Numbered from the stretch's first letter, positions 9,001 through 51,000 are shown. The stretch is DNA of 64,000 bases from Aulosira sp. ZfuVER01 (GCA_034530615.2 JAVRCV020000022.1:1-64000), one strand, 5' to 3'. Numbers: made by a program.

Positions 9001-12000
9001 GTAGCAACGGCATCTCTCACAGTGGCAAGCCAGTCCACCGACCCTTGCGAAATTCAATGACACTACCGTCTACAGGACTCCTCACCTCCTCCAGTCAGGA
9101 ACCGACCACTACCCAAGCCAAATCAGGTGGTTGCGGATGCGACAGCAAAAGCAGCGCCACCGTAGAAATGGATGAAAAACTTAAGGCACGCATTGCCCAA
9201 CATCCCTGCTATAGCGAAGACGCACACCACCACTACGCCAGAATGCACGTTGCAGTCGCTCCGGCTTGCAACATTCAATGCAACTACTGCAACCGCAAAT
9301 TTGACTGCGCTAATGAAAGTCGTCCTGGTGTAGTTAGCGAGTTGCTAACTCCAGAAGAAGCAGCGCATAAAGTATTGGTGATTGCAGGTAAGATTCCCCA
9401 AATGACAGTCTTGGGAATTGCTGGTCCTGGCGATCCACTGGCGAATCCAGAAAAGACATTTCGCACCTTTGAGTTGATTGCAGACAAAGCACCAGATATC
9501 AAACTTTGCCTTTCAACCAATGGTTTGATGCTGACCGAATATGTCGATCGCATCAAACAACTCAATATAGATCACGTTACTATTACCCTTAACACAATCG
9601 ACCCAGAAATCGGCGCACAGATTTATTCTTGGGTTCACTACAAGCGTAAGCGTTATAGAGGTGTTGAGGGAGCCAAGATTCTGCTCGAAAAGCAGATGGA
9701 AGGATTGCAAGCCCTCAAAGAAGCCGATATCTTGTGCAAAGTCAACTCGGTAATGATTCCGGGAATCAATGACCAGCACTTGGTAGAAGTCAATAAATTC
9801 ATTCGTGAAAACGGCGCATTCCTACACAACATCATGCCGTTGATTTCTGCACCAGAACACGGCACGCACTTCGGCTTAACCGGTCAACGCGGCCCTACAA
9901 CCAAAGAACTCAAAGAAGTTCAAGACAACTGCGCCGGCAATATGAAGATGATGCGTCACTGCCGCCAATGCCGCGCTGATGCTGTAGGATTATTAGGAGA
10001 AGACCGCAGCCAAGAATTTACCAAAGATAAATTCTTAGAAATGGCTCCCGAATATAACCTCGAACAACGCCAAGAAGTTCACGAAGGTATTGAGAAGTTT
10101 AAACAAGAAATTAAAGCAGCCAAAGAAAAGGCACTAACTGGCAAGAAATTTGCTAATAATCCCAAAGTCCTGGTTGCAGTCGCAACCAAAGGTAGTGGAT
10201 TAGTTAACCAACACTTCGGTCATGCGAAGGAATTCCAGATTTACGAAGTAGATGGTAGTGAAGTACGCTTTATCAGTCATCGCAAAATAGACCACTATTG
10301 CCAAGGTGGATTTGGAGAAGAAGCCACTCTAGACTACATAATTAAAGCGATCGCAGATTGCAAAGCGGTTTTAGTCTCCAAAATTGGGAACTGTCCCAAA
10401 GAAGAATTGCACAAAGCTGGCATACAGACTGTTGAAGCTTATGACGTAATTGAAAAGGTTGCTTTGGAATTTTACGAGCAATATGTCGAAGGACTAGGCA
10501 AATAAGGTATGGGGCATGGGGCATGGGATCATAATGATTTTCGATGCCCACCCAAAAAGCCCAATCCCCAATGCCCATTGCCCAATCCCCAATGCCCAAT
10601 CCCCAAAAGGAGAATAGTCATGGCTTACAAAATCACTAGCCAATGTATTTCCTGCGATTTGTGTCTGTCTATCTGTCCTACTGGTGCAATCAAAATAGTT
10701 GATGGTAATCGCTGGATTGACCCCGAACTTTGCACAAATTGCGTCGGTAGTATTCATACAGTAGCTCAATGTAAAGCTGGTTGTCCTACCTGCGATGGTT
10801 GCGTTAAACAACCTAGCGATTATTGGGAAGGTTGGTTTGCCAACTACAACCGCGTTTTAGCGAAATTAACTAATAAAGAAGATTACTGGGAGCGTTGGTT
10901 TAACTGTTATTCTCAGAAGCTTTTACTATCAAATTAAAAAGATGCATTGAGGACAGTCCATCGCAAATGAAATGGCTACTCAACAATAAATGAAAATTGT
11001 AACTATTACTTACTGAAAAATGAATTTAACGCCAAAATGACGACTGGAATACTCATGCCGCCCATAAATTCTTGTATAACTAAACTGGTTAGCTGACACT
11101 CGCGGTACAAAAATATCTTGCTACATGACAACTGAAAGTGCAAATATAAGAACTAGAAATTTCAAAGAGGTAATTATGGTTCCGCTGGAATGGGTTGTCA
11201 TGCTGGCGTGGAACAAAGAGTGTGGCGAAACTCTAAAATTATTGCGTGGTAAAAGGTCTAGACGCGAAATTGCAGATGCTGTTTCTCAGCAAGGTGTGGA
11301 ATGCTCACAAGAGTACATCAGAAAACTGGAAAACGGTGAAGCCGCCTCTGTTTCCACAAAAATTATCATTACAATTGCTAAAACCCTTGATGTTGAATTG
11401 ATTGAGATAATTTCTGACTTGCGTGTTGAAGTCACAAAAATAGTTTGTACTTAGAGTTGCTTTTTGTACTCTGAGTTGTTATTTTAGATAATGTCAAAGC
11501 AAAAGGCGATCGCTCAGAGCCTGGAAAACTTGTGCGATCGCCTTTTAATCCTTTAACAGGAAATACCATTATGACTCAAACCATCTATAGCTATCAACAG
11601 CTGCAACACAAATCCATAGCTCGACTTAAGCACATCTACAACGAAATGATCTGCAAGGTTGAGGTACTTGACAAGCGGTGCAAGGATGCTTGGATTAATG
11701 CCATAGCTGAGTATCAAGCTAGCAGAGTTCAGACAGTGGTTGATACTACCCTTGAAGAACATGCCACAGCCGAAGCTATTGCTCCGCAACTAATAACAGT
11801 AGCAATCAACTTCTGCCACCATGAAGTCTACGTAGGTAAAAAACTTATAGCTTACATGGTCTACGATGATGACGAATTTATTATGCAACCTTGGTTGGTT
11901 ATGGTTAAAGGCAAAGAAATTTTCCGCGCCACTACATCTGCCAAATGCTTGCGCTACATTCAATGGCATTACCAGGACGGCACACTCAACCCATTCGACC

Positions 12001-48000: not shown

Positions 48001-51000
48001 ATTAGATATTCAACAAATTATTGTCTGTGGCCACTCACATTGTGGTGCCATGAAAGGGTTAATGAAGTTAGACAGCTTGCGGGTAGAAATGCCGCTTGTA
48101 CATGACTGGCTCAAGTATGCAGAAGCAACCCGACGGCTGGTGAAAGACAACTACAGCCACTACGAAGGGGAAGAACTTTTAGAAATAATTATTGCTGAAA
48201 ATGTACTCACCCAAATCGAAAATCTACGGACTTATCCGGTGATTCGCTCTAAACTCTACCAAGGAAAACTTAGTATTTATGCTTGGATTTACCAAATTGA
48301 GGCAGGAGAAATTTTGGCATACGACCCACAAAAGCACGCCTATGTTTTGCTCCAACATCAGCTTCCTCCATCAGAGATAGATGATACGTTACTTAGCCCA
48401 TCTTTAACTGGCAATGTGGAAATAGATTCTGTTGAAACTCAACAACAAGCGTATCTATTACCCCGGGAACTCCCTAGTTCGGAACATGAATGGTTTCCAA
48501 TGACAGTGCTATCTCCAGAACAAATGGAGCGAATTTATCGAGGCTCAACAACATAGTAGTAATTTCCAAATGGCTACAAGCGATCGCAGTTGCAGATGGA
48601 AATGTTACTTGGCAATTTGCTTAGTGATCGGGGAAGCGATCGCCTTTTGCAATTCTGCACTAGCCCAAATCGCACCTGATCGCCAATGGTTCTCAAATAG
48701 AGGCAAGTACTTTGGGGTCACAAGCTGGCGGAACTTTAGCGATCAATGCTAGTGAGCGGTTGGATGTTAGTGGTACATCTGTTGAAGGTCATTCCACTGG
48801 CTTAGGTGCTATTGTTTACCCAGGAGCAACTGGGAATGCCGGAGATTTGAAAATTAACACAGGTGAGTTGCTGATTCGAGATGGGGCAGAGGTAGGGGAG
48901 GAAATGTGACAGTCACAGCAAACAAAATTCAATTGATTGGTACGTTTAGCAGTGCGATCGCAATATTTAGTAACGATACTCAATTGCTGTAACGAAGTTC
49001 CCATCTACGCAGATTTTTTTAACGCAGCCATTGAGGATTGCTCTTTTATCTTGAGCATTAAGTCCTTGCCAGTAACTTTTATTTGCAAAAGCCCTTATAA
49101 TGCGTTCCTTCGCAATCAAGGATTCTCTGGATGCATTATTGATTGCTCCCAGTGCGATCGCAATTTGTTCTTTGAGATCATTTTTGATTTGTTCGATGGC
49201 TGAACTTGGTGGTAAGGTTTCCAGATTATTCAGCGATGCGCGGAGAGTTTTGACTTCTGGGGGTTCCTCTACAATAGGTGGCTCATCTGTTTCCACCAAG
49301 TTCGCTAACCTTTCGGCTTCTTGTGCCAATAAATCTACCACTTGGATATCTAATATTTTTGATGAAATCATAGTTTTATTGCTACAGTTGCCAGCTTTAT
49401 ACAAACGGCACTGAAAATAATAGATAGCTTGTCCCTGCTTATCTACTCGTTTTGCATGGCGCGTCATTGAACCTCCACAATGAGCGCATTTGATTAAATT
49501 AGAAAATGGGTTGATTTCGTTATCTTCTCTGGAAGCCCATCGGTTATGACGATTACTGCGGATCGTTTGTTTTATTTGCTCGTGTTCGGCGCAAGTAATG
49601 ATGGCTTCATCGTCGTGGGTTCCCCATTTTACCTTCCACTCATCAAAATGTTTGCGCTTTCCCTTTGATTTCACATAAGTATCAAAAGGTAAGCCTCCTG
49701 CATAGACAGGGTTGACTAATAATGCTTTTAAACCTGGAATTGACCATCTCAATCCAGACCAAGGATAACGCAAGGGGTGGTTAGCTTTAGCTGGTGTAAA
49801 TACAATTGTATCTAAGTCGTCATCGCTGATAATTCGTGAAGATTTCTCTGGTTTATGCCAATCAAAAGCTTTTGTTTCTATGCCAAAATCTGAGTGCAAT
49901 TTACGAACGGTAGCCGCAACGGAACCACACTCAAAAAAAGTATTAAAAATATATCGAGCTACGTCAGATACAGTTAACTCTCTTCGCTCTTCTAACAAGC
50001 AAACGCATGGTGAATCATCGCGGACATATTTATCGTTGTGGATGCGGTATCCTAATGGCGCAACTCGGTGACTTTTTCCTTGAGTTACACGATGACGGCG
50101 TTCGCTCTTTAACCTCTCCGTCACCATTTTGACCTCAAATTTGGCAGCAGCAAGCAACATATCAATAGTTAATTCTCCGCCCAAACTGTCTGGATCGACT
50201 CCTTGATCTAAAGCGATGAGTTTAATTCCTTTGGAACGCAATACTTCCAACAATGAATAAAACAACCTTGATGATGAACCAATGCGATCAATCCGGGTAA
50301 ATTGCAGAGATACTATCTTACCCTTTGCAGATGTCTTCAAGTCATTGATTAATTGTTGTAGTCCTTCCCTGACTTCGGTTGTCCGTGACTGAATATCCCA
50401 GTATACTTTTGAACAACCAGCATTTTGCAAGCGTTCTATTTGTTTACGCAACGCACCTTTATCTGTTTGCTGCTCCTCACCGCTGACCCTTGCGTAACCC
50501 CAACTTTCCATAACAGCGCATAGACACAACCTTTATTATATTTGATAGAGGATACTTCTATTCTCAGAAATTCTCTGAGCAGTTGCAAAAGCGTCAGCCC
50601 CAAGTGATAGAAGCAAAAGCATAATATAGAGGCCCTTTGGGATGCTTGCCGCAACCTAGGATGAAGCCAGATAATTAGGCTTCATCCTACAGTCCGACGA
50701 ACGCCCTACAGACTTCACACTTCATATTATTGGTATTACCTCAAAATTTTGGCTCTTATCTCATCAAAATTGGAAGCAATGCAAAATAGCTGCATTTATC
50801 TCGATAATAATGCCACCACTAAGGTAGACCCAGAAGTTGTAGAGGCGATGCTGCCCTACTTAACTGAATATTACGGCAATCCTTCTAGTATGCACACCTT
50901 CGGTGGGCAAGTTGGCAAAGCGGTGAAAACAGCAAGAGAACAACTTGCAGCCCTTTTGGGAGCCGATGAATCGGAAATTGTCTACACTAGTTGCGGAACT

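What a model noticed while it worked through the whole genome (the two positions that open the first line are those of the whole stretch)
10908..50569. Heterocyst-excised fdxN element carries a whole type III-A CRISPR-Cas system with RT-Cas1
The nif-cluster gene fdxN is cut after codon 88 by a 39.6-kb insert bounded by an 11-bp direct repeat (TATTCTCAGAA) and ending in a XisF-type serine recombinase gene; the insert holds csm1-5, cas6, a CARF protein, Csx3/Crn3, a WYL protein, cas1-cas2, an RT-Cas1 fusion and three CRISPR arrays, plus a second XisF-like recombinase. I read it as a developmentally excised fdxN element whose cargo is a complete adaptive immune system, so that terminally differentiated heterocysts cut their type III CRISPR locus out of the chromosome while the germ-line vegetative cells keep it. 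New would be immune cargo on a programmed-rearrangement element, which would help explain why such elements persist.
Evidence so far: swissprot.tsv: g01635 aligns FdxN 1-88 of 116; the missing C-terminus (YSQK|FSEQLQKRQPQVIEAKA*) is read in frame from C22:50559 on, and the same 11-mer stands at both junctions, C22:10908 and C22:50559. Gene content from the tables: g01640-g01647 (CARF, Cas6, Csm5-Csm1, Csx3), g01648 WYL, g01655-56 Cas2/Cas1, g01660 RVT_1+Cas_Cas1 673 aa, recombinases g01663 and g01672 (NCBIfam: fdxN element excision recombinase XisF). Arrays: C22:36101-37152 (rna.tsv) and two more of the same repeat family at C22:26470-27461 (13 repeats) and C22:30870-32075 (17 repeats), not in rna.tsv. 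The same nif cluster is also cut in nifD (XisA element), nifK and nifE. The survey of such elements (PMC4874684) has 0 occ [...]
(Added by a program. Inside this text positions count along the whole contig: contig position 1 is position 1 of the stretch shown here. "Call 12" and the like, gene names such as g00115 and contig names such as C1 are that model's own, and its searches are not shown. The text may have been shortened before it was handed on; [...] marks where a part breaks off. The agent that wrote the report below was given it as the finding of a first reader that could run no searches.)

Follow-up and report, generated by a model that had tools for sequence, protein, structure and literature searches.

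The report
CRISPR-carrying fdxN excision element
A nitrogen-fixation gene of a filamentous cyanobacterium is split by a 39.7-kb removable DNA element whose cargo is a complete type III CRISPR immune system, an arrangement that is real here but already present in the model strain's own element, so it is a new example rather than a new kind.

Summary
fdxN is split by a 39,651-bp insert flanked by TATTCTCAGAA. An intact XisF gene lies 30 bp from the right junction. Three congeners have uninterrupted fdxN genes that read exactly as the predicted join.

The cargo is a complete Csm (III-A-like) system. It has an HD-less, GGDD-bearing Cas10, a CARF-HEPN protein, Csx3, Cas1-Cas2, RT-Cas1 and three leader-bearing arrays with 43 unique spacers.

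Compared with congeneric elements, the whole CRISPR block (13556-41181) is one indel in a variable slot. It is a mosaic: the csm half matches a locus in another genus, and the RT-Cas1/array/TPR-CHAT half matches G240's fdxN element and an ordinary chromosomal locus in G030.

The novelty claim fails. Published locus tags place RT-Cas1 (alr1468) and the III-D cas6 (alr1482) inside the PCC 7120 fdxN element. I also recall, but could not read, Hou et al. 2019 stating this. A nifH element in G204 carries a complete type I-D system.

Among the other fdxN elements, 21 of 22 carry no cas1 or cas10. Excision remains inferred: no xisH/xisI lies on the window's contig, and the contig-level read test was uninformative.

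The parts
9045..10505 (+). nifB, the left chromosomal flank
   Evidence: TIGR01290, 668 bits against a cut-off of 344
10620..10918 (+). fdxN 5' part (codons 1-99 and two bases of codon 100)
   Evidence: Matches 4Fe-4S dicluster ferredoxin models. 93-95% identical to the uninterrupted fdxN of congeners.
10908..10918 (+). Left copy of the 11-bp direct repeat. The conserved crossover core is TATTC.
   Evidence: TATTC is the only part shared by both junctions in the 5 other elements where both junctions could be read.
11125..13555 (+). Left core of the element: an HTH gene (11125-11454) and ORFs 11532-12242 and 12491-13555
   Evidence: Collinear at 86-93% nucleotide identity with the elements of G069 and G204, and in part G213
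13556..41181 (.). 27.6-kb CRISPR-Cas island: an indel in the element's variable slot
   Evidence: blastn: G069 has about 480 bp and G204 has 25.7 kb of other DNA between the same flanks
14316..15653 (-). CARF protein with a C-terminal RNYSILAH (HEPN-like) motif. A CARF fragment lies at 13798-14319.
   Evidence: TIGR02710, 233 bits. Motif read; its assignment as HEPN is from recall.
15657..16430 (-). cas6 (weak match)
   Evidence: TIGR01877, 30 bits, below the cut-off of 59. 82% identical to the cas6 of G120's csm locus.
16445..20365 (-). csm5, csm4, csm3, csm2
   Evidence: All four equivalog models score above their cut-offs
20335..22668 (-). cas10/csm1: GGDD at residues 564-567, no HD domain
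   Evidence: TIGR02578, 588 bits, matching model positions 87-753 only. Pfam finds palm2 and Csm1_B only. Motifs read.
22728..23600 (-). Csx3/Crn3 ring nuclease fused to a P-loop domain
   Evidence: TIGR02579, 93 bits; PF09620. GPPDSGKS motif.
23956..25431 (+). WYL / TIGR03985 CRISPR-associated protein
   Evidence: 347 bits; PF13280
26479..27545 (-). CRISPR array 1 (13 repeats plus 1 degenerate) with its leader at 27462-27545
   Evidence: About 80 nt of flank is shared with the other two arrays.
29324..30642 (-). cas2 and cas1
   Evidence: 65 and 142 bits. 96% and 84% identical to G030's genes.
30869..32150 (-). CRISPR array 2 (17 repeats) with its leader at 32074-32150
32409..33158 (-). HTH-DUF4384 gene, divergent from RT-Cas1
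   Evidence: PF14326. 77% identical to G240's gene and 86% to G030's.
33731..35752 (+). RT-Cas1 fusion (673 aa)
   Evidence: Cas1 part 316 bits; group II intron-type RT part 248 bits. 85% identical to the copies in G240 and G030.
36013..37226 (+). Leader (36013-36100) and CRISPR array 3 (15 repeats plus 1 degenerate)
37281..41090 (+). TPR-CHAT protein (1269 aa), conserved beside RT-Cas1 in G240 and G030
   Evidence: PF12770 CHAT plus TPR repeats. 71-74% identical in G240, where it is split into two ORFs, and 83% in G030.
41402..44125 (+). ORF 41402-42268 and the inner XisF-family recombinase (42584-44125)
   Evidence: NF041201, 536 bits. About 28% identical to the outer XisF. Orthologues at 84% or more occur in 6 genomes, all inside fdxN elements.
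45387..46588 (.). Two Uma2-family genes of the right core
   Evidence: PF05685. PADLOC PDC-S17 240 bits and PDC-S03 96 bits.
47537..48556 (+). Beta-carbonic anhydrase, specific to this element
   Evidence: PF00484. No match over 47428-48968 in any of the 6 compared elements.
48967..50529 (-). XisF, the outer recombinase, 30 bp from the right junction
   Evidence: NF041201, 523 bits against a cut-off of 375. Orthologues at 80-98% in 31 of 300 family genomes.
50559..50624 (+). Right repeat copy (50559-50569) and the fdxN 3' part (21 codons and the stop)
50749..56337 (+). nifS, nifU, nifH and the nifD 5' part (right chromosomal flank)
   Evidence: The nifD 3' part is at C22:75362-75475.

Best explanation
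This is an fdxN interruption element of the XisF (large serine recombinase) type, 39,651 bp long, sitting in the nifB-fdxN-nifS-nifU operon.

Its conserved core is a left arm (11.1-13.6 kb) and a right arm (41.2-50.6 kb) that ends in xisF. Between the arms is a variable slot. In this genome the slot holds a 27.6-kb CRISPR-Cas island as accessory cargo.

Inferred mechanism of excision. During heterocyst differentiation XisF recombines the two directly repeated sites, whose core is TATTC and which are flanked by the inverted CTATCAAAT/ATTTGATAG motifs. This restores a 117-codon fdxN and releases the element as a circle. The circle is neither inherited nor necessarily lost, because heterocysts do not divide.

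Inferred working of the island. It should act like any type III system:
- The arrays are read from their leaders and cut by Cas6.
- A Csm complex with an HD-less Cas10 senses target RNA, and Csm3 cuts it.
- The GGDD palm of Cas10 makes cyclic oligoadenylate, which activates the CARF-HEPN RNase.
- Csx3/Crn3 degrades the signal.
- RT-Cas1 and Cas1-Cas2 add spacers.

Origin. The island is a mosaic that came to lie in the slot. It is not an obligatory part of the element.
For: Shown:
- Exact junctions and three empty sites in congeners.
- A TATTC core shared by the junctions of the 5 other elements where both could be read.
- An intact XisF, 80-98% identical to the recombinase beside nifS in 31 of 300 family genomes.
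- A full set of csm, cas and signalling genes above model cut-offs, with GGDD present.
- Three arrays with homologous leaders and 43 unique spacers.
- The island as a single indel relative to G069 and G204.
- The csm half is syntenic with G120 at 67-89% amino-acid identity (csm2 57%), with no fdxN, nifB or XisF homologue found in the about 39 kb fetched.
- The adaptation/TPR-CHAT half is syntenic with G240's fdxN element and with G030's locus between uppS and moaE.

From papers. Excision of the PCC 7120 fdxN element by XisF in heterocysts is stated in passages of PMC4874684 and PMC4192349.
Against: - No xisH or xisI lies on the window's contig. About 10 pairs lie on other contigs, at 62% identity or less to G240's pair. 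A passage of PMC4874684 says both are required in PCC 7120.
- No rejoined fdxN was seen, so excision here is not shown.
- Cas6 scores below its cut-off.
- No spacer matches the 50,697 phage records or the organism's own genome, so activity is unproven.
Confidence: 0.8

Rival explanations
1. The CRISPR cargo is functionally tied to development. On this reading fdxN elements are preferred homes for type III systems, and excision separates the immunity of terminal cells from that of the germ line. That could limit autoimmunity or collateral RNase damage in nitrogen-fixing cells, and it could help the element persist.
For: - Two genera carry homologous RT-Cas1, leaders, repeats and TPR-CHAT in their fdxN elements.
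- G204's nifH element carries a full type I-D system.
- This genome's own nifD element carries a type II restriction-modification pair.
- PMC4192349 lists three HetR ChIP peaks beside all1467/alr1468, asr1469/alr1470 and all1471/all1472 on the PCC 7120 element.
Against: - 21 of 22 other contiguous fdxN elements have no cas1 or cas10.
- 0 of 21 named loci show cas genes within 10 kb or less of xisF.
- A rough chance estimate: there are 48 cas1 hits in those 22 genomes and the elements make up 0.52% of their DNA, so 0.25 are expected in elements and 1 was seen.
- The same locus lies at an ordinary chromosomal site in G030.
- In the congeners G069 and G204 this slot holds no CRISPR-Cas: about 480 bp in G069, 25.7 kb of other DNA in G204.
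Confidence: 0.12
2. The element is a fossil that no longer excises. fdxN would be permanently split in this strain, and nitrogen fixation would do without it or use a paralogue.
For: - xisH and xisI are absent from the element.
- Contigs of three runs pass straight through the left junction with no alternative form.
Against: - XisF has an open 520-aa frame and is 94-98% identical to its congeneric orthologues.
- Both fdxN halves are open and identical in their join to the intact genes of congeners.
- The core and the flanking inverted motifs are conserved.
- Contigs drop rare variants, so cannot show absence.
Confidence: 0.1
3. The insert is a composite. The inner XisF-family recombinase (42584-44125) belongs to a nested element that brings cargo, including the CRISPR island, into the slot.
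For: - The gene lies at the right edge of the variable slot.
- Orthologues at 84-93% identity were found in 6 genomes. Five of them lie inside fdxN elements; the sixth (G113) lies on the nifB contig about 26 kb from nifB, and its XisF is on another contig.
Against: - No split gene, direct repeat or XisF-like core was found at 13556 or 41181.
- G240 carries CRISPR cargo without this gene.
- G069 keeps the gene with an almost empty slot.
Confidence: 0.15

Closest known systems
The fdxN element of Anabaena/Nostoc sp. PCC 7120 (xisF alr1459, xisH, xisI)
   Same: - Same host gene, same TATTC core and same position of xisF beside nifS.
- XisF is 90% identical in G240, which has the gene order that the published tags imply.
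- That element also carries RT-Cas1 (alr1468), two arrays split by it, a type III cas cassette (cas6 alr1482) and TPR-CHAT.
   Different: - The effector module there is III-D (Csx10 638 bits, a Cmr2-type Cas10). Here it is Csm/III-A.
- The RT-Cas1/DUF4384 pair is inverted.
- That element has xisH and xisI; this one has none.
- This one has a second XisF-family gene, a separate Cas1-Cas2 and a carbonic anhydrase. G240's has phosphoketolase, DnaJ and ABC exporters.
Interruption elements of heterocyst-forming cyanobacteria surveyed by Hilton, Meeks and Zehr 2016 (PMC4874684)
   Same: A recombinase-bearing element in a nif gene, with highly variable length and gene content. I read their 'Element gene content' section.
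   Different: That survey lists only 3 fdxN elements among 101 elements, and its main text never mentions CRISPR. I did not open its supplements.
The nifH element of G204, with a XisF-family recombinase and a type I-D system
   Same: A nif gene split by about 35.4 kb that carries a complete CRISPR-Cas system and an array of at least 40 repeats.
   Different: A different host gene, CRISPR type, repeat family and recombinase paralogue.
Cyanobacterial type III loci with RT-Cas1 at ordinary chromosomal sites (G030)
   Same: cas1, cas2, RT-Cas1, DUF4384 and TPR-CHAT in the same order at 83-96% identity.
   Different: The locus lies between housekeeping genes, 0.5 Mb from that genome's fdxN element, and its effector is III-D.
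The skin element in sigK of Bacillus subtilis (recalled, not tested)
   Same: A prophage-like element cut out of a developmental gene in a terminally differentiated cell.
   Different: A different phylum, recombinase and cargo.

Membership tests
fdxN interruption element (XisF type) | Splits fdxN inside the nifB-fdxN-nifS-nifU operon | tested here: met
   Empty sites in three congeners.
fdxN interruption element (XisF type) | Directly repeated recombination sites with the same core as in other fdxN elements | tested here: met
   TATTC is shared at both junctions in G240, G204, G060, G213, G163 and here. That TATTC is the published core is recalled.
fdxN interruption element (XisF type) | An XisF orthologue encoded at the nifS-proximal end | tested here: met
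   NF041201, 523 bits against 375. 90% identical to G240's gene. It lies next to nifS in 18 of 21 named loci.
fdxN interruption element (XisF type) | xisH and xisI on the element | tested here: not met
   No Pfam XisH or XisI among the element's ORFs of 80 aa or more. tblastn finds no copy on contig C22; the pairs lie on other contigs. The query ORFs were confirmed as PF08814 and PF08869.
fdxN interruption element (XisF type) | Excision during heterocyst differentiation | tested here: inconclusive
   Contigs of 3 runs bridge the left junction and show no joined form. Contigs cannot show absence.
Type III-A (Csm) CRISPR-Cas | Cas10/Csm1 with Csm2-Csm5 | tested here: met
   All five equivalog models score above their cut-offs.
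Type III-A (Csm) CRISPR-Cas | An HD nuclease domain at the Cas10 N-terminus | tested here: not met
   The model match starts at position 87. There is no HD Pfam hit and no HD dipeptide in residues 1-150.
Type III-A (Csm) CRISPR-Cas | A cyclase GGDD motif with CARF effector and ring nuclease | tested here: met
   GGDD at 564-567. TIGR02710 CARF at 233 bits and Csx3/Crn3 at 93 bits.
Type III-A (Csm) CRISPR-Cas | Cas6 and repeat arrays with leaders | tested here: inconclusive
   Arrays and leaders are clear. Cas6 scores only 30 bits against a cut-off of 59.
RT-Cas1 adaptation module | A group II intron-type RT fused N-terminally to Cas1, next to an array | tested here: met
   RT at residues 6-269 and Cas1 at 337-666 in one 673-aa ORF. 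Array 3 starts 349 bp downstream.

The most novel reading that the evidence does not exclude
The variable slot of fdxN elements is a long-standing docking site for an RT-Cas1/array/TPR-CHAT core, around which type III effector modules are exchanged (Csm here, III-D in G240).

On this reading, programmed excision together with HetR binding next to RT-Cas1 gives heterocysts an immune state different from that of dividing cells. For example, spacers acquired in terminal cells would never reach the germ line, or the type III collateral RNase would be held down where nitrogenase is made.
Probability: 0.1. Interest if true: 0.7.

Novelty: new member of a known kind. Interest (0 to 1): 0.35.

Why it matters
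It adds a second, differently equipped example of a CRISPR-Cas system that is cut out of the chromosome in a terminally differentiated bacterial cell. Here the effector is Csm, whereas the model strain has III-D.

It also shows that the cargo is a swappable mosaic in one slot of the element.

That makes one question testable in two systems: do heterocysts keep, lose or re-regulate adaptive immunity after excision?

It does not by itself explain why these elements persist.

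Tried and rejected
- **Read evidence for excision.** I laid the contigs of runs X1-X3 on 9000-13000. These are the only full holders of the stretch and may be the source of this DNA. Contigs bridge the junction, with no joint and no loose end at 10918. This is uninformative, because contigs drop rare forms, and a 20-kb limit prevents covering both junctions together.
- **Spacer targets.** No match to 50,697 phage records at E 0.1 or below. No match longer than 23 nt to the organism's own genome.
- **HetR site in the leaders.** GGGGTCTAA occurs in the leaders of arrays 1 and 2 (2 matches against 0.31 expected; 6 of 100 shuffles reach 2). It is absent from the leader of array 3 and from G240's leader, and the two copies are paralogues. 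I dropped the lead.
- **Signature at the island's borders.** I found no repeats or att-like core at 13556 or 41181.
- **Papers.**
  - 'fdxN element' with CRISPR: 1 unrelated paper.
  - heterocyst with CRISPR and xisF: 1 unrelated paper.
  - fdxN with CRISPR: 22 papers, 17 listed. I opened passages of two (PMC5987646, PMC3542288) and neither links the two topics. The other listed ones I judged from title and abstract start only.
  - Three further word combinations found nothing that links them.
  - Hou et al. 2019 could not be opened by DOI, PMC id or PubMed id.
- **Earlier notes of this scan.** None covers this finding.

Full report
**Observation**

The 11-mer TATTCTCAGAA stands only at 10908 and 50559. 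None of 100 shuffles gave two matches.

Upstream of the first copy, fdxN is open from 10620 and reads ...WFNCYSQK. From the second copy the same frame reads YSQKFSEQLQKRQPQVIEAKA and then a stop. The break is therefore at codons 97-100 of a 117-codon gene.

Three congeners have an uninterrupted fdxN (L045 from G179, L047 from G237, L048 from G192). Their DNA passes from ...TGTTATTC..AGAA straight into ATTCTCTGAGCAG. L047 has the same C-terminus and the same downstream sequence as this window's right flank. These are empty sites, and they fix the insert at 39,651 bp.

The flanks are nifB on the left, and nifS, nifU, nifH and a truncated nifD on the right.

**The element**

The outer recombinase gene (48967-50529, minus strand) ends 30 bp from the right junction. 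It scores 523 bits on the XisF model, whose cut-off is 375.

In 300 other genomes of the family, 31 have an orthologue at 80-98% identity. The next best hits fall to 58% and then about 52%. In 18 of 21 named loci from the contig collection, this gene lies next to nifS.

I aligned the junctions of the five other elements where both ends could be read. Only TATTC is common to both ends. Inside the ends lie the inverted motifs CTATCAAAT and ATTTGATAG. The 11-bp identity here is therefore longer than the functional core.

No xisH or xisI lies on the window's contig. About ten pairs lie on other contigs, at 62% identity or less to G240's pair, which Pfam confirms as XisH and XisI. A passage of PMC4874684 says both genes are needed for excision in PCC 7120. 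This is the main caveat on the inference that the element excises.

**The cargo**

NCBIfam places Csm1 to Csm5, a TIGR02710 CARF protein, Csx3/Crn3, a TIGR03985/WYL protein, Cas2, Cas1 and a 673-aa RT-Cas1 above their cut-offs. Cas6 is weak, at 30 bits against 59.

Cas10 has GGDD at 564-567 but no HD domain. The CARF protein ends in RNYSILAH, which I read from recall as a HEPN motif. Csx3 is fused to a P-loop domain.

There are three arrays, of 13+1, 17 and 15+1 repeats, with 43 unique spacers of 33-46 nt. Each array has the same flank of about 80 nt at one end. I take this flank as the leader. Arrays 1 and 2 would then be read on the minus strand and array 3 on the plus strand, with the degenerate repeats at the far ends.

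No spacer matches the organism's own genome beyond 23 nt, and none matches the phage collection.

**How the cargo sits in the element**

By blastn, the elements of G069 and G204 are collinear with this one over 9001-13555 and 41182-50560. Between those arms G069 has about 480 bp and G204 has 25.7 kb of other DNA. The whole block 13556-41181 is thus one indel in a variable slot. I found no repeat or att-like core at its borders.

The block is a mosaic.
- **The csm half.** This Cas10 finds no match in 14 congeners. Its best match is 80%, in G120 of another genus. There the CARF fragment, cas6, csm5-2, cas10, csx3 and the WYL gene are syntenic at 67-89% identity, except csm2 at 57%. Cas1 and Cas2 lie nearby at 74% and 89%.
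- **The adaptation half.** ORFs 28135-29193, cas2, cas1, DUF4384, RT-Cas1 and TPR-CHAT are syntenic at 77-96% with a locus in G030. That locus has a III-D effector and lies between uppS and moaE, 0.5 Mb from that genome's fdxN element.

**Is CRISPR cargo on such elements new?**

No. G240's fdxN element (XisF 90% identical, nifB 87%) carries the following:
- RT-Cas1 at 85% identity
- DUF4384 at 77%
- TPR and CHAT ORFs at 71-74%
- a type III-D cassette (Csx10 638 bits, a Cmr2-type Cas10 at 382 bits, and a 377-aa Cas6)

Its repeat shares the 3' 23 nt TTACCCCTCACGGGGATGGAAAC with the repeat here, and one leader is homologous.

Papers give the same picture for PCC 7120, independently of G240.
- nifS is all1457, xisF is alr1459 and nifB is all1517 (passage).
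- alr1468 is an RT fused to Cas1 (table row).
- alr1482 is the type III-D cas6, and arrays CR_2 and CR_3 are split by the RT-Cas1 gene (passages).

I also recall that the abstract of Hou et al. 2019 (RNA Biol 16:518) states that the CRISPR-Cas system lies within the fdxN element, and that other strains show analogous arrangements. I could not read that paper. No held paper that I found makes the link.

A further case turned up here. In G204, nifH is split: residues 1-69 and 54-302 lie 35.4 kb apart. The insert has a XisF-family gene at 553 bits, a complete type I-D system and an array of at least 40 repeats.

**How common is it?**

Of the 31 genomes with the XisF orthologue, 22 have xisF and nifB on one contig. 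The interval between them is roughly 14 to 90 kb. Only G240 has a Cas10 palm domain or a Cas1 in that interval. The other 9 are split over contigs and cannot be judged.

A rough chance estimate follows. There are 48 cas1 hits in the 22 genomes, and the elements make up 0.52% of their DNA. So 0.25 hits are expected inside elements and 1 was seen, which is no clear enrichment. Kin are not independent, and this window was picked because of its cargo.

Other slots hold some defence-like genes: a phospholipase effector, mad3-like ATPases and a large kinase. This genome's own nifD element carries a type II endonuclease and methylase at 449 and 779 bits. So a looser pattern, of defence genes gathering in these elements, is possible but untested.

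**The second recombinase**

The inner gene (42584-44125) scores 536 bits on the XisF model but is only about 28% identical to the outer XisF. Orthologues at 84-93% occur in 6 genomes of three genera. Five lie inside fdxN elements. The sixth (G113) lies on the nifB contig about 26 kb from nifB, with its XisF on another contig. The role of this gene is open.

**Excision**

Contigs of three runs that hold the stretch (they may be its source) pass through the left junction with no alternative form. This says nothing either way.

**Verdict**

This is a real and well-bounded fdxN element with a complete, apparently intact type III system as swappable cargo. It is a new member of a kind already seen in the model strain.

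Noticed in passing
window 59073-61174 (inside the nifD element, which runs from about 56323 to C22:75362): A type II restriction endonuclease (NF052465 351 bits; PADLOC REase_II 449 bits) and its methyltransferase (PADLOC MTase_II 779 bits; no Pfam or NCBIfam hit) ride on the neighbouring nifD interruption element.
   Followed up: partly
window 37281-41090; L001:10326-13735; G030:C1:3314100-3317870: A TPR-CHAT (caspase-like) protein is conserved next to RT-Cas1 and an array in three genomes. In G240 it is split into a TPR ORF and a CHAT ORF. It may be a CRISPR-associated protease, but such proteins are common in cyanobacteria.
   Followed up: partly
PMC4192349, Table 1 (PCC 7120 coordinates 1729122-1735224): Three of the 26 HetR ChIP-seq peaks lie beside all1467/alr1468 (RT-Cas1), asr1469/alr1470 and all1471/all1472 on the fdxN element. 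The paper's main text never mentions CRISPR. The window's leaders 1 and 2 hold GGGGTCTAA, but the motif is not conserved in leader 3 or in G240.
   Followed up: partly
L012 (G069:C1:1464000-1482500): In G069 the DNA beyond the xisF end is not the fdxN 3' part or nifS. The right junction lacks TATTC, so this 13.9-kb element seems rearranged at that end.
   Followed up: no
G233:C1:1920664-1945732: xisF and nifB lie on the same strand here, unlike in the other 21 contiguous cases. This may be an inversion or an assembly issue.
   Followed up: no
window 47428-48968: A beta-carbonic anhydrase gene lies between the Uma2 genes and xisF. It has no match in any of the six compared elements.
   Followed up: no
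G000:C56:39623-43993 and C22:75742-77028: nifK is split. Residues 1-434 are on C22 and residues 423-516 are on C56, next to a XisF-family gene. A second XisF-family gene and a nifD/E-like fragment lie beside it.
   Followed up: no
window 1-123 and 2002-2872: A 21-nt tandem repeat at the window's start, and WD40-type 126-nt repeats inside a 693-aa Ser/Thr kinase gene (809-2890).
   Followed up: no
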